Assembly (NCBI RefSeq): GCF_009914755.1
Contig: NC_060932.1
DNA from: the human T2T-CHM13v2.0 reference genome, Homo sapiens
Strand: one strand, 5' to 3'
Length of the DNA stretch: 64,000 nucleotides
A program made the translations under genes and the position numbers. Every line of letters starts with the position of its first letter. The first letter of the stretch is position 1. Below, piece after piece: positions 54,901 through 64,000 of this stretch. The notes below the pieces were generated by a model. It made no database searches. It was not told where the DNA came from and saw only the letters and a list, made by a program, of their open reading frames with translations.

Positions 54901-55958
54901 AGGTGCTCACCACAGGCTCACATTGCAATGAGCAATAGTAACAACACTCCAGCCTCTTCACCCCACTTTTAGAGTTCTTCCTATGGGCCAGGCACCATTC
55001 TGAGCCCTTCAGTTCTCTTCAATAACCCTATGAGGAACTATTATTACCTCGATTTTACAAATAAGGAGATAAAGGCACACTAATAAAGGATTAGTAGTAG
55101 CCATGTACAAGTCCCCACATGGATCTGTGTGAGACAAGTGTAGGGATGGCATTGTAGGGGGTGGAGGAGTTCACAGGGTATTTGTACCCTTAATTTAACT
55201 AAGTAGCGTTATTCAAGTTAGTCCACAAGAGCTTCTGTATACCACTCCCCAAGTCTGCACAAAAACAGACACACTGAACACAGTGGCTTTGGGGGAGTCC
55301 GTGAAATGGGAGTGGGTAAAGAAGTAAAAAGGGATAAGTGAATATAAAAACCAAGAGGCGCCCTGCAAGGGGCAGTGATCAGAAAGTACCATGGACCAAG
55401 GACTGTGATGAACTCAACTCTTACTTGAGGTTTCCCCACTGAACCCTGAGCTGCCCCAACCTGAGGCCTCCTATCCCAGCACAGTGTGCTCACTCCTGTC
55501 CTTTACCCCTGTGTTCCTTGCCAGCATTCTCACAGGACACTTATCCCTGACCCCCTGCCTGTGATGTGGGTGCTTGTCTTATCTTCTGCCTTCTCCCAGG
55601 AGCTCTCCAGGGGCAGGGACTGTCTTGTTACCACAGAATCCTCAGAGATCAAGACTGTACACAGTAGGTGCTCAGAATGACCCTGGCTGGCTGAATGGAA
55701 AATGAGTGAATGGATGACTTGAGACATATATTGTGTTTACTGAAGTGAAAACTATGTGGAGCAGCCCCTTTCACACACACAGGCACACACCCACACATGC
55801 CCACATGCACACACATGCACACACTCATGCCTGTATAAACAGGAGAATTACTGGGGAGTAAAATGTGATATTTTAGAAAGAGAAGAGGATTTTAGAATCA
55901 GAAATAAAATCGATGCTCCGGCATGGGTTAATTGTGCAAACTTTTGAAAGTCTTTTAA

Positions 55959-56444
<486 letters not shown>

Positions 56445-56935
56445 TGACCCACAGAAGATCCCAGGAAAGAAACAACGGGGGCATGTTGCAAATACCTGCA
56501 TCTTTGGGTGTGTAGATGTTTCAGACTGAAAAGCGAATATGTGCCCAGAAGGACTGGTGTGGGGAAGGTCTATTGTTTCAGTGTGATTCATTGTCCTAGG
56601 GCAAAGGATGCAAGTCCCTGAGGCGAAGGAAGGCTGGGAGAAAAAGAGGAATGAGGAGGAGAAGGCTAAAGTGCCAGGCACGAGGCCAAGTGCAGTGGGG
56701 AAGGAGCAAATGAGGAAACAGCACAGATCAACCTGCAGGAGGTTTATGATCCAATCATTATGAAGGGGTCTCAGTGGGGAGAAACATTTTCCAGTTTTGT
56801 GGTCAAGATGCGCTAGACTTTGCACTCACCAGCTGGGGAGCTTCGCATGCTTTTAACATCTTTATGCTTCACAGTCCCCCTCCTCTGGAAAATACTACTT
56901 CATAATGGATATTGTGAGTATTAAGGGAGATGGGT

Positions 56936-57345
56936 TGTCTTAATCCATTTAGCATTGCTTATAACAGAATACCTGAAACTGGGTAATTTCTAAAGAAAAG
57001 GAAATTATTTTTTACAGTTATGGAGGCTGGAGGTCCAAAGTTGAGGAGCCGTATCTGATGAGGGCCTTCTTGCTGGTGGGACCCTGCAGGTTCCGAGGCA
57101 GCACAGGGCATCACGTGGCAAGGGGGTGGAGCATGCTAATATGCTCGCTCAGGCCTCTCTTCCTCTTCTTCTGAAGCCACCAGTTCCCCTCCCATGACAG
57201 CCTATTAATCATAGATTAATCCATTTGTGAAGGCAGATCCTTTATGACCCAAACACCTCTTAAAGGTCCCGCCTCTCAATACTGTGACATTAGGGATTAA
57301 ATTTCAACATGAGTTTTGGAAAAGACAAATATGCAAATCATAGTA
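56936..57345 (-). mobile_element. MST-type (MaLR) solo LTR
   Basis: tgtcttaatccatt...aaatcatagta termini; 5-bp TSD tgggt. Confidence 0.88.
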
Positions 57346-58086
57346 TGGGTCTGTGCCTGTTTCCTCTGTCTTTCTCCCTATCCTATACAACTAGTACTAA
57401 AATGTGAAAGGATTCCTAATCAGCAAAAATCCAGTAGGATGCTTGTCTCATTAGATTCTGTTCTTTAAACATTTATTCTGTTCTCTGATTTGTGGTTTGA
57501 AAAGAGGAAAACTCAGTAAAGAATTGCCCATCTCAGGGAGTTAAGCACCATGGGTTAGCACACACAGTGCCCTAAGGTTACTTTCTAGCTCATCTCCTCT
57601 TTGGCTGCATGTCTTTGGGCAAGTAACACAACTCACTAAACCTCAGGTTTGTCATTTTAAGATGGGACTGTCATGAAGAAGCAGATATTTAAGTTTATAA
57701 AATGATTGATAAATGATGGCCATGACATTGGCTGATGTTGAGAGGGCTAACATTGTTCTCCAGGGCAAAGCCCATGACCTGGATGATAGAGTAGACTGCA
57801 TTTTGATTTATGACTCGCACACTGACAGCGTGATGTGAACCAGCCTCACATTCATTGAACCAGTGCCTGTCGGGTGCTGGCTTTTTGCCAGGCCACATGC
57901 TGGGCTCTGGAGGATGAGAGGAACCAGACTCTGCTCCAGTGTAATATACAATCCAGGCATGGATGCAGGCCTCATGACACACGAGTCACTACACTATGAT
58001 AAGCCTCAGGGTGCAGGGCTGTACAGAGTCCTACAAGAGCCAGGTAGAGAAAGGGTTAGTTCTACCTGGGGGAGAAGTCAGGAGAC

Positions 58087-58358
58087 ACCTCAGAAGGAAG
58101 GTGACTTCATCCTCATTCAGTGACTGAGCATAAAAATGAGAAGACAACAGACTGCTTTCTCTTTCCTGTGTTTTGAGAGTTAGTATAGAGCATGGTGATG
58201 ATGAGTATAGACTCTGGAGCTGCGCTGTCTGGGTCAAAATCCACGCTCTTCCATTTATCAGCTGTGTGACTCTAAACAAACCTCTGTTTGTGCCTCAATT
58301 TCTTTATCTGTGAAATAGGGATGATAACCTTGTACATTCCTTCCAGAGGATAAAATAC
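58087..58358 (+). repeat. Left arm of 272-bp inverted duplication (non-repeat-like sequence + MIR)
   Basis: Hand alignment to the reverse complement of 59919-60190: ungapped, 19 mismatches. Confidence 0.96.
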
Positions 58359-59918
58359 CCAGGACAGTACCTTGCTTAAAACTAAGGCCTATGTGACTGC
58401 TTGTTGTTGTTGTAATTGAGGCTTCCTTCCTACAGCAAGGGAGTTCTCATAGGATGGACCCCTGGAGCCCTCCTCCACCTGCCACAACACTGTGGAGTTC
58501 CAGGGCCTTAGTGCAGTACAGGATTTGGACTAAATCCTTGGTCTGCTGTGTAATTATCCTTGTATTTTGTATCTCCATACAGCATCTTCATTTGATTTAC
58601 ATCCATATCTCAAAGGAACAGATGGCTTTTATTTGTCAAATAATTATTTGAAAGGGAAAATAGGTTCTGTTGAGTTCTGGACTCTGTCTCCATAATTTTA
58701 AGCCAAGTACCTCATTTTTGTTAATAATAATAGCTGCTATTTACTAAAAGCTCCCCACGTGCTGGGCACAATGCTTAGCATTTTATATGCATCATTTGCT
58801 ACATCTCACTGCAGCCCAAAGCTGGATGTTATTAGTGTCTTCATTCTACAGATGAGGAAGGTAAGGCTCGGAAGTGATATAGCTAGAAGATGGTGGAGCC
58901 AAGATGGAAACCCAGGTTTGTCCAATTCCAGAGTCACTTTGCTTAACCACTCCACTTCCATTTTCATAAGAAAGGGTACCAATTTCCCTCTCCTGTTTCA
59001 CTTCTGCGCTAACACAGAGGGACTTGTCTGCAGGTGACATGCCCCCTTTATGTATTTTTAATGATGAGGAAAGCTGAACCTGGGCCCCTGCAGTCATAGC
59101 CGAGTGCCACTGTTCAGCTGGTAGCACTCACCTGACCACGCGGGGCTCAGGGAGAAAAAGCCTCCGAAGGCTGTTCCTGAAAAACCAGTGCTTTATAAAG
59201 TGACTTAATGGAATGAAATATTTCAAAGAGGGGAATCCAGTCATTCCCAACATCACTGGGGATATGGGACATAGAAATCTTGTGATTGAAATACAAAGGG
59301 AAGGAGAGAAAGCTCCGACAGAGAAAGGCTTCTGGGATGAAAGAGGGAAACAGACTAAGTGGCTAAGAGGGAGCATTAGAGGAGAAGGGGAGGAAATCTT
59401 AAGAGGGTGAAGCACGGAACCTGCCATTTGCAACAACCAGGCTGGGGCTTAGTCCTGAGGACATGAATGGTCTCTTACCCCAGTGCACCAAGGCTGCCAT
59501 GTGGCAGGCGTTCAGTAAATGTTTACTCATTTATAAAAGAATATGGGCTGGGATCGGGTAGGATGGGTAACAAGCAATTATTGAGCACCTGATGTGTGCC
59601 AAGCACTTAATATTCTTGGACAATGCTCATAACTCCGCAGGGTAGGTGCTAACCCCATTTAAATGAGGAAAACTAAGGTTTGGAGGGTTAATATCCAACG
59701 TGCCCAAGTCCAACATCAGGTAGGTAATGAAACTAGAATTTCCCTCCAGAGTTATTTGATTCTAAAGCTATACTCTGTCCATGACAGCTGGCTCCATCAT
59801 CAAAATGTTAGCTAAGTGCTACCATAACTTCCAGATAATGTCATTTAACTCAGTTATAATGCATAACTCTTTAAGAAAGCCCTTAAGAAATGAGGCGAAT
59901 TATAGGCACCTTGGCAGA

Positions 59919-60190
59919 GTATCTTATCCTCTGGAAGGAATGTACAAGGTTATCATCCCTATTTCACAGATAAAGAAATTGAGGCACAAAGAGAGGTTTG
60001 TTTAAAGTCACATGGCTGATAAATGGAAGAGCGTGGATTTCGACTGAGGCAGTGCAGCTCCAGAGTCTATATTCATCATCACCACTCTCCATACTAACTC
60101 TCAAAACATAGTAAAGAGAAAGCAGTCTGTTGTCTTCTCATTTTTATGCTCAGTCACTGAATGAGGACGAAGTTACCTTCTTTCTGAGGT
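59919..60190 (-). repeat. Right arm of 272-bp inverted duplication
   Basis: Reverse complement of 58087-58358, 93% identity. Confidence 0.96.
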
Positions 60191-62090
60191 AGGTAGGAGA
60201 ATGTATGTTTGTTTGGGTGAACCTTTTAGTACCTCCTGGAGGTGGTCATGCAGTCCTTTTACTCATGGGAGCAACTCCAAGGACAGGTCGATACGCACTT
60301 ATTCATGCAAATAGCTATTGAGCATCTGCTATGCACAGAGTGCTGTGTTAGTGTCTAATACTGTGCCTAGCACATTGTAGGTCCTGAATCCTATATTTAT
60401 ATAATGAATGAGTGAATGAACAAATGCTGGTCTCTGGAATCTTATTAAGTGGTATTTACAGCCCAGTGCCAAAGAAGATACCGAAATATTTCTATAGGAA
60501 AGATGCTGTGAAGATCACAAATTGCTTTGGTATTACGCTGTCAAGTGCATGCTACAAGACACATCACATTTCTATTTTGAAAAGCATCATAAAAACACGG
60601 TTCTTTGTGATGTCACTGACACAGGGTAACTTTGCATTGCAGCTTTTTAACTTCTGTTATTAGTTGGTTGAAGTCATTCATTTCCTATTGGAAAAGTTAG
60701 ATTTTCTCTGAAACGTTTAAAATCTTGTTGTGTCTCAGACATAAAGTACCCTAAAAGTGAAAAAGCAAGAAGAGAAGGAAATTGTGAAAATGCACAATAT
60801 TTTTATGACCCACATAAAGAAGAGCAATAAAAATATTCCTTTGTGACCACAGGGCAAATGACTTAATGCTGTGACTAGAAATGACTCGATGTAAAACGCT
60901 GAGATGACAGTTGATACGAGTTTTGGAGTCCAGGCCAGGTCTCCCTCTAGACTTTCCTCCTAGATTGAACAGTGACAGACAAAGGCACAGTTCAGAAACT
61001 TCCCCTGGACCCAGCAGCTGCTGTGATACATTCACCTATGAAATCACTCATTTGCCTGGAAGAGAAAGAAATGTGGTTTTGAACTCTTTCCAGGACTAGT
61101 CTCCTGCATTAATGGAACAGCTTCTTCCCAGGTGCAGAGTCCACTTGCCCCGCAAACAACTCCAGTCTTCGGCTGTGTGAAATTGGCAGGTTTCCAAACA
61201 TCCAATTAAATAGAGAAGAAAATGCAAGACCAAATATGCCCTCCCTTCTGAGGGCACCACTTAAATGGCCTAGGAGGGGGCTGTAAGCCACTTCTAGGCA
61301 AGATGCTCATGGTCTGAGGGCAATTATGCAGATTATTATCCTCTGTATCCATTGACTGCTCCAACTGTATAATGGTACAGTCTACTATCAGTGTAAGAAA
61401 GTTGTCATGCAAAATGGTGAGAGCAGTTTTGAAAACCTTGATCTATTTAATTCAGTCAATAACCACAAAACAGTAGAATTCCACATAAGGAATATTAGGT
61501 CAAATACCCAACTTCAGGATATTTGATGACAAAATTTTATTTGCTCCTAAGTCAAGAATCATGTAATCTCCCCAATCCTCCGTGTTCTCATTCATAAAAT
61601 GGGGATAATATTAGCATCTACATGGCGAGAGTGGGTGAGGTTAGCAGCCTGCCTGGGCTTTGCTGCCAGATGGTCCAGGTGGAACCTCAGTTCTGCCACT
61701 TGCTGGCTCTGGACAAGTGAGCCTCAGTTTCCTGATCTGTAAAATGTGTGTAAATAACTGAACCTACCTCCCAGAATTATTGTGAGGGTTGAATGAGACA
61801 GTGCATGTGAAATTCAGCACACCATAAATGCTCAAAAAAGTGGCTAGTGTTATCATTGGCACTACTGTGAGGACTGGGCTGAAAGTATGTATGCAAAGAG
61901 GGTGTTAAACATGTAGGGGCTCTGCTCATGAAACTTAAGAATGTACGCTTCTCCACGGTTGGGAGTCTTTGTGTTCCCTAGCATTGTTTAGTACATAGTA
62001 GCTGCTCAGTTTACATAGTCACTTGAATATTGAATGGTGAGCAATCACAATGATGATGTGTTCTCTTTCCCCTGTATAAGTATTTGATGA

Positions 62091-62315
<225 letters not shown>

Positions 62316-63937
62316 TGACCACACCTCATAAAAAATGCCACGTTGAACTCACTCACTTTATTTTAAAGTAAATAAAGTCCTGACGCTGTGAGTGGTGAGA
62401 ACACTAGATGTACCTAGAGGCAAACTTGACCTCTGAAAACAGTTCACAGAACCAAAAAGATTGGTGATGATCATTTGCTTTACTAAAAGAGTTTTTCACT
62501 GACTTCCATTTAAATGGCAATTAAAATTGGATCTGGTTTACAGAACGTCAGTCTACACACTTCTTCAGGAATGTGATACTTGTATAAAGCAACCTGCAAC
62601 TGTACCCAGCCTCCAGCTAATTCCAGGTCCTATTGCTGTTTAATAAAAATGTCCATGCTTTTTGGAGACAGGAGGTTTTTACTGATCTCCCCTGGCTGAA
62701 AAGAAATGGATGGGTATTTTCTCAGCCTTTCTGTGCTTCTTTCTCTCTTGCTTGTTGCTTCGACGCCTTTCACAACACTTTAATCTCTATCCCTTTTCTT
62801 TTATGATGTGAACCAAACCTCTTGTTCTCCAAAGACGTTTGTGTGCTGAACCCTTGGATAGAGTCAAAAGCTTACTGGAGGATTTTTTTAACTTACACAA
62901 ATATTCTTTTCTTAAATTAGGTAGTCTAAAATGAAAGGAAAGGGTTTGTTTCTTTATTTAATATCTCTACCTCCTCATGAGGTTGCAGAAGCACAAATAT
63001 ATTAAGTAAAACAGTAGTTCCAGGAAGCCTGCCTAAAGCTTCCCCACCTCCTCGCAGTACTCCTGACAGCCCCTGTCTTTGGGTCAAGGTCAGGAGGGAG
63101 TCAAGAAGTGAGCATCACAGAAGGGGAGCAGAGACCTTGGAGACCATGAAGTTCCCATCTTGCTTCCTAGAGGAGGAAACAGACACAGAAAGCTCAAATA
63201 CCTTCTTTAAAGCCATAGTTGGTTGGAGGCTGAACCAGGTCCCCTGTGCCCACTTTTGCCTGTACAGGTGGTGGAGGCTAGTGTAGCAGTCTATACATCC
63301 ACATTCTAGCCCTCCAAGCCACTCCCTCCCTCTGGGCCCCATTCCCCTATCTATAAATTGGGGATAGATGTGTATATTTATGGAAGAGGATTTCTACTAT
63401 TTAGCATGTAGTATAGATGCTCTGTAGGGAAGACCACAAAATCATTACCTTTTCAATTTTGTTCTTAACAACATGCTTTCAATTGTTAGTGTTTATTTTC
63501 TATGCAGAAAACAATAATAGCAATAGAGCGTCTTTGAACACTCTACTAGGAAAAATCAGGTGACAGCAAACATTCCAAAGATCTGCAGGGCAGGGTACCA
63601 TTGTGGTTAGGAGCACAAACTTTGGAGCCAGGCAGACTTCAGTTTGAGCTCTCACATCTGCTACTTTCTAGCTCTATGCCCTTGGGCCAGCTGCTCAACC
63701 TCTGAACGCCTCATGCCTAAAAAAGAGTTAAAAATAATACCTTTCTATAGGATCATGAGGACTAAAGGAATGTTGTATAGGCTTTGCATAGTGACTGGTA
63801 TACAAGTGCCCAATACGTAGTAATGATGAAGATGATTGATATGTTTAAGTGATGAGGGAGTCCTGCCCTATTTTTCTTGGTAGTAAAAAAGGATATTAAA
63901 ATATTTTTGTATGTTTGTATGTAGGTCATAGTCCTGT

Positions 63938-64000
63938 TACACTAACCTGCTGAGCTGGCTGTGTTTCCCTTTGCTGTCCCATTGCTTTCCATTTCCCTTC
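63938..64000 (+). other. FER1L6: Probable branch point (acactaac) and polypyrimidine tract of the next exon, which lies just beyond the window
   Basis: CTAAC near 63942 followed by a pyrimidine-rich run to the window end; the C2 domain is incomplete at exon J. Confidence 0.55.

What the first reader, a model, noticed from the sequence alone, without database searches (positions are those of the whole stretch)
58087..60190. Ungapped 272-bp, 93%-identical non-Alu inverted duplication around a 1.56-kb spacer
Seen: 58087-58358 aligns without gaps to the reverse complement of 59919-60190 with 19 mismatches. About 100 bp does not look like a repeat and the rest is MIR-like. Known: independent MIR copies are far more diverged than this, so the identity needs local inverted duplication and/or arm-to-arm gene conversion. 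In the sense pre-mRNA, 9 of the 19 mismatches are G-U wobbles and 6 are A-C. Inference: a near-perfect ~270-bp dsRNA stem within the intron splitting the C2 domain (ADAR/Dicer/dsRNA-sensor substrate), and a substrate for recurrent inversion of the spacer.
Basis: partly seen in the sequence, partly recalled or inferred. Interest (0 to 1): 0.75.

Follow-up and report, generated by a model that had tools for sequence, protein, structure and literature searches.

The report
Intronic inverted duplication forming RNA hairpin
A 272-base piece of a FER1L6 intron was copied backwards about 1.6 kb downstream some tens of millions of years ago, so the intron RNA should fold into a long hairpin that buries a cryptic exon; this is a known kind of feature, and two similar copies lie just downstream.

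Summary
58087-58358 pairs without gaps with 59919-60190 (19 mismatches; 9 G-U, 6 A-C). The homology stops sharply at both ends.

In the whole T2T genome the arm has only these two copies. Its first 99 bases occur nowhere else, and the rest is the 5' part of a MIR. It is therefore a local inverted duplication, not two independent MIRs. Arm divergence (K2P 0.074) suggests a date near the ape/Old World monkey split.

In a 2.3-kb fold, 262 of 272 arm positions pair in register.

- The right arm contains a whole annotated alternative exon (59970-60188). Its acceptor comes from the antisense MIR, its donor straddles the duplication edge, and it has an in-frame stop after 11 codons.
- Two more non-Alu inverted duplications of similar divergence (384 nt, 92%; 313 nt, 94%) lie within 9.7 kb. 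This points to a replication or repair template-switching episode.

Wobble and A-C mismatches are 26:26 when pooled, so there is no sign of selection for pairing. Recurrent inversion is unlikely, because the longest identical run is 67 nt. Editing, small RNAs and primate orthologues could not be tested. This is a new member of a known kind, of moderate interest.

The parts
58087..58358 (+). Left arm of the inverted duplication (sense-orientation MIR part plus unique flank)
58087..58185 (+). Unique (non-repeat) segment of the arm. MIR-like sequence starts by eye near 58181; the profile match starts at 58203.
   Evidence: Only the two arms match in the whole genome. In the whole-arm search, 2 of 22 other matches reach back to arm positions 74-83.
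58203..58349 (+). MIR part of the left arm (profile positions 8-153 of 269)
   Evidence: nhmmer with a profile of 17 independent window copies, arms masked, E=6e-17
58359..59918 (.). 1560-nt spacer, which is the loop of the predicted hairpin. It holds two older antisense MIR copies (58687-58949 and 59565-59776).
59919..60190 (-). Right arm, the reverse-complement copy (antisense MIR part at 59929-60074)
59970..60188 (+). Annotated alternative exon (219 nt) lying wholly inside the right arm. The acceptor ...TTTCACAG|A comes from the antisense MIR. The donor GAG|GTAGGT straddles the arm end at 60190.
   Evidence: Exon coordinates come from the hub's RefSeq table. The acceptor corresponds to the conserved MIR stretch aligned.
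60003..60005 (+). First in-frame stop (TAA) if the 219-nt exon is spliced between the coding exons 56272-56396 and 62157-62291
56953..60188 (+). Annotated long alternative exon that contains both arms and the spacer and uses the same donor
   Evidence: Hub's RefSeq table; acceptor TTTAG|C and donor checked
56272..56396 (+). Upstream coding exon (start of a C2 domain). The intron 56397-62156 (5760 nt) holds the structure.
62157..62291 (+). Downstream coding exon
   Evidence: Hub table; open frame confirmed
63548..63930 (+). Left arm of a second non-Alu inverted duplication (384 nt aligned, 92%). Its partner lies outside the window at 64925-65308 (L027:925-1308). The arm contains a full MIR with unique flanks.

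Best explanation
Origin. A 272-bp stretch of intron, made of about 95 bp of unique DNA plus the first two-thirds of an old MIR SINE, was copied in reverse orientation to a site 1.56 kb away. The most likely cause is a replication or repair template switch (a templated inverted insertion). The most likely date is in an anthropoid ancestor, near the time apes and Old World monkeys split. It is probably a neutral by-product of a regional episode of such switches. Two further non-Alu inverted duplications of indistinguishable divergence sit within the next 7.6 kb.

RNA consequence. The left arm is transcribed first in the FER1L6 pre-mRNA. When the right arm emerges, the two should zip into a 272-position duplex: 253 Watson-Crick pairs, 9 G-U pairs and 10 unpaired positions, with uninterrupted helices of up to 67 bp. 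Such a duplex is a good candidate for A-to-I editing by ADAR.

Splicing consequence. The duplex also encloses a MIR-derived poison exon (59970-60188). The exon's acceptor lies 221 bp deep in the stem. Its donor sits at the stem's open end. Folding should therefore suppress the cassette form of that exon, while the shared donor stays usable.

What is shown and what is inferred. Shown: the duplication, its uniqueness, its sharp ends, the predicted fold, the splice motifs, the stop codon, and the cluster. Inferred: the mechanism of origin, the date, folding in vivo, editing, and any effect on splicing.
For: The duplication is real and local:
- It is ungapped at 93%.
- There is no homology beyond the ends.
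- There are only two copies in 3.1 Gb, and the 99-nt flank is found nowhere else.
- Independent MIR matches of 74 nt or more are 69-78% identical (13 of 22 other matches).

The fold:
- 262 of 272 positions pair in register in the minimum-energy structure of 2304 nt.
- The arm duplex is -469 kcal/mol, against -72 and -61 for the arms folded alone.
- The stem exceeds the medians that a human dsRNA survey reports for edited dsRNAs: 297 bp long, about 85% paired, 31 contiguous pairs (section 7 of PMC11838218).

The exon:
- Both the AG and the GT are present at the annotated ends.
- The exon is 219 nt, with a stop after 11 codons in the frame set by the ten coding exons.

Neutrality:
- G-U versus A-C mismatches are 9:6 (p=0.61).
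- Pooled over the three duplications they are 26:26.

The cluster:
- A self-BLAST of the whole 269-kb gene finds 4 low-copy local inverted pairs and 1 direct pair at 88% identity or more.
- The three long ones lie within 9717 bp (p=0.004 for 3 of 3, p=0.015 for 3 of 4; post hoc).
- Their divergences are homogeneous: 19/272, 30/383 and 16/311 (chi-square p=0.36).
- Each has only two full copies genome-wide.

Polarity of the third pair:
- 39 of 52 independent repeat copies run across the inner edge of the upstream arm.
- 0 of 39 do so in the downstream arm.
- The downstream arm is therefore a truncated copy.

Mechanism:
- Template switching is documented to create inverted repeats in the human lineage (passages of PMC5453318).
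- The MMBIR model predicts low-processivity synthesis with multiple template switches (abstract and passages of PMC2621351).
Against: - No outgroup genome, RNA-seq, editing catalogue or small-RNA data could be consulted. The date, in-vivo folding, editing and the splicing effect are all unverified.
- The cassette acceptor at 59970 is annotated as used. The stem therefore cannot be formed, or cannot be inhibitory, in every transcript.
- Which arm is the parent could not be resolved for this pair. Neither inner flank scores as the MIR continuation (local alignment p=0.10 and 0.12).
- Mismatches are not evenly spread: 12.3% in arm positions 78-199 against 2.7% elsewhere. The top-two-gap test gives p=0.013, the sum of squares p=0.027 and the largest gap p=0.075. 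Some later arm-to-arm conversion may therefore have occurred, and the true age may be greater.
- The cluster statistic is post hoc and rests on one gene. A wider control sample could not be fetched.
- Microhomology at the junctions cannot be read without the ancestral empty site.
Confidence: 0.6

Rival explanations
1. The duplication, or a pair of inverted MIRs, is much older. The 93% identity is maintained by repeated arm-to-arm gene conversion or quasi-palindrome correction, so the divergence does not date the origin.
For: Mismatches are clustered. There are two identical runs of 55 and 67 nt, and the central 122 nt is 12.3% diverged against 2.7% elsewhere. [quoted passage not shown]
Against: The arms include about 95 nt of unique sequence outside the MIR, so they were not two independent MIR insertions. 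The identity drops to background within one base at both ends. The clustering is only marginally significant and the block boundaries were chosen after seeing the data. Two neighbouring duplications have the same divergence without needing the same conversion history.
Confidence: 0.15
2. The structure arose as a 1.56-kb micro-inversion with a staggered break at one end, or as a single template-switch event that inverts the spacer. The spacer was turned over at birth and the arms are the duplicated break region.
For: The geometry (arm, spacer, inverted arm) is what such events produce. [quoted passage not shown] For the third neighbouring pair, only continuity between the upstream arm and the spacer is shown. 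Both models predict that.
Against: Nothing in the single genome distinguishes it from a simple templated insertion. The events in that paper are tens of bases long, not hundreds.
Confidence: 0.15
3. The hairpin is a selected regulatory RNA structure. It might be an editing-inducing or splice-masking element that tunes a poison exon of FER1L6.
For: Both splice sites of the annotated exon lie in the stem, and the 67-nt perfect run covers the acceptor. There is a precedent of an exonized antisense Alu paired with a sense Alu 731 bp away whose splice site depends on editing (passage of PMC2879366).
Against: There is no excess of pairing-preserving changes: G-U versus A-C is 9:6 here and 26:26 pooled. 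Ten positions are already unpaired. Two neighbouring duplications of the same age suggest mutation rather than selection. No expression data are available.
Confidence: 0.15
4. The arms act as substrates for recurrent inversion of the spacer by non-allelic homologous recombination.
For: Inverted orientation and close spacing.
Against: The arms are 272 nt at 93%, with a longest identical run of 67 nt. In the inversion study I read, repeats were defined at 1 kb or more and 97% or more, and breakpoints fell in high-identity tracts (passages of PMC3961182). A search for FER1L6 plus inversion listed 10 of 11 matching papers. None was about this site by title or abstract start, and the one I opened reports a 3-kb deletion elsewhere in the gene.
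Confidence: 0.04
5. The whole 2.1-kb unit is a mobile element with long terminal inverted repeats.
For: There are inverted termini. A shared hexamer AGGAGA lies 1 nt and 4 nt outside the two arms.
Against: There are only two copies of the arm in the genome and none of the unique part elsewhere. The spacer is ordinary old DNA with two MIRs. The hexamer is not adjacent to the termini, and 3% of random flank pairs from this intron share one.
Confidence: 0.01

Closest known systems
Intronic inverted-repeat dsRNAs (typically inverted Alu pairs), the main A-to-I editing substrates in human
   Same: Two reverse-complementary copies lie in one pre-mRNA a few kb apart and are predicted to form a duplex of about 270 bp. 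Such inverted duplicated sequences are common in pre-mRNAs and are tolerated there far more than in mRNAs (passages of PMC7006430).
   Different: The arms are not Alu. They are a two-copy local duplication of unique DNA plus part of a MIR. At 93% identity they pair better than the Alu pairs in this gene (77-91%). At 272 nt and 93% they fall below the 'longer than 300 bp, above 96%' class that paper treats as dangerous. Editing was not shown here.
Exonized transposable elements whose exon pairs with an inverted partner (the editing-dependent Alu exon of NR_024561)
   Same: An antisense repeat supplies the acceptor of an alternative exon, and an inverted partner nearby can form dsRNA over it (passage of PMC2879366).
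   Different: Here the repeat is a MIR and the partner is a duplicate of the exon region itself. The donor lies at the duplication edge. The acceptor AG is already genomic, so editing is not needed to create it.
Template-switch mutations that create inverted repeats and hairpins (four-point model); MMBIR/FoSTeS complex rearrangements
   Same: A reverse-complement copy of nearby sequence, with sharp ends, that creates a hairpin. Several events are clustered, as expected from low-processivity synthesis with repeated switches (passages of PMC5453318, and PMC2621351).
   Different: The published short events are tens of bases long, and MMBIR events are usually tens to hundreds of kb. These are 272-384 bp copied over 0.3-1.6 kb. 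Junction microhomology could not be examined.
Inverted repeats that mediate recurrent human inversions
   Same: Inverted orientation flanking a unique segment.
   Different: These arms are far shorter and more diverged than the repeats described for such inversions.

Membership tests
MIR SINE (part of each arm) | Significant match to a profile of independent MIR copies | tested here: met
   E=6e-17 (left) and 6e-18 (right) against a profile of 17 window copies with the arms masked, covering profile positions 8-153 of 269. The family name MIR is my recognition of the sequence; no repeat library was available.
Local inverted segmental duplication | Shared non-repeat sequence, exactly two copies, discrete ends | tested here: met
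Inverted-repeat dsRNA / ADAR substrate | Both arms in one transcript, with a long stable predicted duplex | tested here: met
   Both arms lie in intron 56397-62156 and in the annotated exon 56953-60188. 262 of 272 positions pair, and the duplex is -469 kcal/mol.
Inverted-repeat dsRNA / ADAR substrate | Clusters of A-to-G mismatches in RNA over both arms | not testable with these tools
   No RNA data were available. A search for FER1L6 plus 'RNA editing' found 3 papers, none relevant by title or abstract start.
Repeat-derived alternative (poison) exon | Canonical AG and GT at the annotated ends, and a premature stop in the main frame | tested here: met
   Acceptor TTTCACAG|A, donor GAG|GTAGGT, TAA at 60003-60005. 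That the exon is expressed rests on the hub's RefSeq table only.
NAHR inversion substrate | Long, highly identical inverted repeats (kb scale, tracts near 100%) | tested here: not met
   272 nt, 93%, longest identical run 67 nt, against the passages
NAHR inversion substrate | Both orientations found in populations or related species | not testable with these tools
   Only one human assembly is held.
DNA transposon with long terminal inverted repeats | Multiple copies in the genome and adjacent target-site duplication | tested here: not met
   Two arm copies only. The shared hexamer is offset from the termini and has a chance probability of 0.03.
Known structured RNA or miRNA family (Rfam) | Match at or above the gathering score | tested here: not met
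   3 sub-threshold matches in 56000-62500 and none in the arms. The best is mir-95 at 26.4 bits against a gathering score of 67.5, located in the spacer.
Template-switch / MMBIR product | Reverse-complement copy of nearby sequence, clustered with other switches | tested here: met
   polarity of the third pair
Template-switch / MMBIR product | Microhomology at the junctions relative to the ancestral empty site | not testable with these tools
   This needs an outgroup sequence.

The most novel reading that the evidence does not exclude
One ancient multi-switch replication-repair episode left three hairpin-forming inverted duplications within 10 kb, and these now act as RNA-structure switches on both strands. 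The first masks a duplication-born poison exon of FER1L6, with ADAR editing or helicases deciding how often the exon is seen. The second brackets exon 63947-64083 of the antisense lncRNA FER1L6-AS2, with the donor 16 nt from one arm. That geometry favours exon skipping or back-splicing into a circular RNA.
Probability: 0.1. Interest if true: 0.6.

Novelty: new member of a known kind. Interest (0 to 1): 0.35.

Why it matters
Long intronic duplexes are the raw material of human A-to-I editing and can change splice-site choice. Almost all known ones are Alu pairs.

This one is a cleaner case. It has two copies only, a known extent, and an annotated premature-stop exon sitting inside one strand of the duplex. 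Deleting one arm would give a simple test of whether RNA pairing hides an exon.

The cluster of three like-aged inverted duplications may be a fossil of a multi-switch replication-repair event in the primate germline. Primate assemblies could date it and settle which arm is the copy.

None of this suggests a medical or large functional effect. FER1L6 itself is little studied.

Tried and rejected
- Rfam scan of 56000-62500 at a permissive threshold: 3 sub-threshold matches, none in the arms.
- Looking for the MIR 3' remainder beyond each arm's inner edge, to tell parent from copy. Whole-genome searches across both edges found only the locus itself plus one short piece. The profile search of the flanks found nothing. 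Local alignment to the profile consensus tail gave p=0.10 and 0.12. The question stays unresolved.
- Polarising mismatches with the MIR profile as outgroup: the emission probabilities are too flat to call ancestral states.
- CpG island or internal promoter around the annotated start at 56424: observed/expected CpG is 0.38 or less from 55800 to 60399, so there is no island.
- Target-site duplication: only an offset hexamer, chance probability 0.03.
- Literature. FER1L6 plus RNA editing gave 3 papers. FER1L6 plus inversion gave 11 (one opened). FER1L6 plus isoform, C2 domain and expression gave 16. FER1L6-AS2 gave 7. Nothing about this structure appeared in the titles or abstract starts listed. 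Supplementary tables of the dsRNA surveys were not opened and might list this site.
- A wider control sample of chromosome 8, to measure how often such duplications occur, could not be fetched.
Full report
**1.
- The repeat finder reports one inverted pair in 57000-61500: 58087-58358 and 59919-60190, 272 nt, 93% complementary, 1560 nt apart.
- Base-by-base comparison gives 19 mismatches and no gaps, with 15 transitions and 4 transversions. Three mismatches are in CpG context.
- A permissive BLAST of each arm with 500 nt of flank finds nothing beyond the arm ends (arm E=6e-96; next-best hits E>=0.25).
- Ungapped identity of the 60 nt outside each end is 20-25%, which is background.
- It is the strongest inverted pair in the 64-kb window. 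The other three pairs of 120 nt or more are 77-83%.

**2. What the arms are made of.**
- The window's assembly is held, so I searched all 3.1 Gb. The arm gives 24 matches: the two arms, 13 MIR-like pieces of 74 nt or more at 69-78%, and 9 short pieces of 40-53 nt at 85-93%.
- The first 99 nt (58087-58185) match only the two arms.
- I built a MIR profile from 17 independent copies in the window with both arms masked. It matches 58203-58349 and 60074-59929, at profile positions 8-153 and 8-142 of 269.
- So each arm is about 95 nt of unique DNA followed by the 5' two-thirds of a MIR. Shared unique sequence excludes two independent MIR insertions. This is a local inverted duplication.
- No repeat library was available. 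The name MIR is my recognition of the sequence.

**3. Age.**
- The Kimura two-parameter distance between the arms is 0.074.
- From recalled knowledge, human-macaque neutral divergence is about 6-7%. The arms therefore last shared a sequence roughly when apes and Old World monkeys split.
- This is an inference from recalled calibration and could not be checked against other primates.
- Mismatches are somewhat uneven. Identical runs of 55 and 67 nt flank a central block with 12.3% divergence, against 2.7% elsewhere.
- By simulation, the top-two-gap statistic has p=0.013, the sum of squares p=0.027, and the largest gap p=0.075. The block boundaries were chosen after seeing the data.
- Some later conversion between arms is possible but not demonstrated.

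**4. Which arm is the copy?**
- If one arm were the parent, the MIR should continue past its inner edge.
- Whole-genome searches across both inner edges returned only the locus itself and one short piece.
- The profile found nothing in either flank.
- Alignment to the profile consensus tail was not significant (p=0.10 and 0.12).
- The question is unresolved for this pair.

**5. Predicted RNA structure.**
- In the minimum-energy fold of 57987-60290 (2304 nt, sense strand), 262 of 272 left-arm bases pair, all with the right arm and all in register.
- The two arms alone co-fold at -469 kcal/mol, against -72 and -61 for each arm by itself. The antisense strand gives -455.
- The ten unpaired positions split the stem into helices of 22, 55, 21, 3, 38, 4, 35, 13, 67 and 4 pairs.
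- A survey of human dsRNAs reports medians for edited repetitive dsRNAs of 297 bp length, about 85% paired and 31 contiguous pairs (section 7 of PMC11838218). This stem is comparable in length (272 against 297 bp), more fully paired (96% against about 85%), and has longer uninterrupted helices (up to 67 against 31 bp).
- Another survey shows that inverted duplicated sequences are common in pre-mRNAs and strongly depleted only from mRNAs. It treats duplexes longer than 300 bp and above 96% identity as the rare, risky class (passages of PMC7006430). This stem falls below both cut-offs.
- So the structure is a good but not exceptional candidate ADAR substrate. No editing, small-RNA or expression data could be consulted.

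**6. No sign of selection for pairing.**
- A transition in a stem gives either G-U, which still pairs, or A-C, which does not.
- The counts are 9:6 here (binomial p=0.61) and 26:26 when the two neighbouring duplications are added.

**7. An annotated exon sits inside the right arm.**
- The hub's RefSeq table lists exons of other transcripts at 59970-60188 and 56953-60188. The first lies wholly inside the right arm.
- Its acceptor (…CCCTATTTCACAG|A) is the reverse complement of the conserved MIR stretch aligned.
- Its donor (GAG|GTAGGT) straddles the arm end. The GT is the last two bases of the duplication (60189-60190), and the next four bases are flank.
- The exon is 219 nt. In the frame fixed by the ten coding exons it brings a TAA after 11 codons, at 60003-60005. 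By the usual rule (recalled) such an exon marks the transcript for nonsense-mediated decay.
- In the predicted stem the acceptor AG (59968-59969) pairs with 58308-58309 inside the 67-bp perfect helix. The donor sits at the open end of the stem.
- The long exon 56953-60188 uses an acceptor outside the stem and the same donor, and it carries both arms in one exon.
- My inference is that folding suppresses the cassette form and leaves the donor usable. Since the cassette form is annotated at all, masking cannot be complete.
- A precedent exists: an exonized antisense Alu that pairs with a sense Alu 731 bp away and whose splice site depends on editing (passage of PMC2879366).

**8. The structure is not alone.**
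- I rebuilt the whole FER1L6 gene (269 kb) from the window and 22 fetched stretches and compared it with itself.
- Of 28 inverted pairs of 150 nt or more within 10 kb, four are 90% identical or better.
- One of the four is an Alu pair (71 matches in the gene). The other three have only two or three matches in the gene. They are:
  - this finding;
  - 63548-63930 / 64925-65308 (384 nt aligned, 92%, about 994 nt apart);
  - 66874-67185 / 67493-67804 (313 nt, 94%, about 307 nt apart).
- At a looser setting the gene holds 4 low-copy local inverted pairs and only 1 direct pair at 88% or more.
- Each of the two new pairs also has only two full-length copies genome-wide, sharp ends, and K2P distances of 0.084 and 0.054.
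- The three mismatch counts are homogeneous (chi-square p=0.36).
- The three structures span 9717 bp of 269 kb. By simulation p=0.004 for 3 of 3, or 0.015 for 3 of 4 counting the fourth, an 80-nt low-copy pair. Both figures are post hoc.
- The second pair contains a full MIR with unique flanks. The third contains unique DNA plus part of a different high-copy old repeat, not MIR.

**9. Polarity of the third pair.**
- When I searched across the inner edge of its upstream arm, 39 of 52 independent repeat copies aligned straight across the edge.
- Across the inner edge of the downstream arm, 0 of 39 did.
- The upstream arm is therefore collinear with the spacer, and the downstream arm is a truncated copy with a novel junction.
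- This fits either a templated inverted insertion or a micro-inversion with one staggered break. One genome cannot tell these apart.

**10. How it most likely arose.**
- The facts to explain are three reverse-complement copies of nearby sequence, each 272-384 nt, each placed 0.3-1.6 kb from its source, of one apparent age, within 10 kb.
- The simplest explanation is replication or repair synthesis that switched templates repeatedly.
- Template switching is known to create inverted repeats and hairpins in the human lineage, at the scale of tens of bases (passages of PMC5453318).
- The MMBIR model proposes low-processivity synthesis with multiple switches after fork breakage (abstract and passages of PMC2621351).
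- The size range here lies between those two literatures. This step is inference.

**11. Inversion.**
- The arms' longest identical run is 67 nt.
- In the human inversion study I read, repeats were counted from 1 kb and 97% upward, and breakpoints lay in high-identity tracts such as 782 bp at 99.9% (passages of PMC3961182).
- From recalled knowledge, homologous recombination in mammals needs a few hundred bases of near-identity.
- I therefore rate recurrent inversion as unlikely. It was not tested.

**12. Other readings rejected.**
- A transposon with long terminal repeats is excluded by copy number. The shared hexamer outside the arms has a 3% chance expectation and is offset from the termini.
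- No Rfam family matches the arms.
- There is no CpG island near the annotated internal start at 56424.

**13. Verdict.**
- The duplication and the predicted stem are solid. The biological consequences (editing, small RNAs, splice masking) are plausible but untested.
- Recurrent inversion is improbable.
- The kind of feature, an intronic inverted-repeat dsRNA born by local inverted duplication, is known.
- Three particulars are new as far as my searches show (titles and abstract starts only): the non-Alu content, an annotated poison exon enclosed in one strand, and membership of a three-fold cluster.

Noticed in passing
window 63548-63930 and L027:925-1308 (= window coordinates 64925-65308): Second non-Alu inverted duplication: 384 nt aligned, 92%, 1 gap column, about 994 nt apart, only two full copies genome-wide. 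It contains a full MIR with unique flanks. Predicted duplex -646 kcal/mol.
   Followed up: partly
L027:2874-3185 and L027:3493-3804 (= window coordinates 66874-67185 and 67493-67804): Third non-Alu inverted duplication: 313 nt, 94%, about 307 nt apart. It is unique DNA plus part of a high-copy old repeat that is not MIR. The upstream arm is collinear with the spacer and the downstream arm is a truncated copy.
   Followed up: yes
window 63947-64000, continuing to L027:1-83 (exon 63947-64083, minus strand): An exon of FER1L6-AS2 with good splice sites (TTTAG|A and CAG|GTTAGT) lies inside the loop of the second inverted duplication. Its donor is 16 nt from one arm. This geometry favours exon skipping or back-splicing.
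   Followed up: partly
L025, window coordinates -5198..-5120 and -4327..-4249: A small low-copy inverted pair (80 nt, about 89-91%, 793 nt apart) upstream of the window.
   Followed up: no
L013-L014 region, window coordinates -124082..-123700 and -123655..-123274: The only low-copy local direct duplication in the gene: 383 nt, 96.3%, copies 45 nt apart (near-tandem).
   Followed up: no
window 56914-56952: The annotated exons 56424-56913 and 56953-60188 are separated by only 39 nt, bounded by GT and AG. That is very short for a human intron and may be a gene-model artefact. 56424 has no AG before it and looks like a transcript start 28 nt after the coding exon.
   Followed up: no
window 58080-58085 and 60195-60200: The hexamer AGGAGA lies just outside both arms, 1 nt and 4 nt away. 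3% of random 15-mer pairs from this intron share a 6-mer, so this is probably chance.
   Followed up: yes
whole window: MIR copies are frequent: 17 independent profile matches in 64 kb besides the two arms. These include two antisense copies in the spacer (58687-58949, 59565-59776) that could compete weakly for pairing with the left arm.
   Followed up: partly
window 59498-59598: Weak sub-threshold Rfam match to mir-95 in the spacer (26.4 bits against a gathering score of 67.5, E=0.08). Probably chance or repeat-derived.
   Followed up: no
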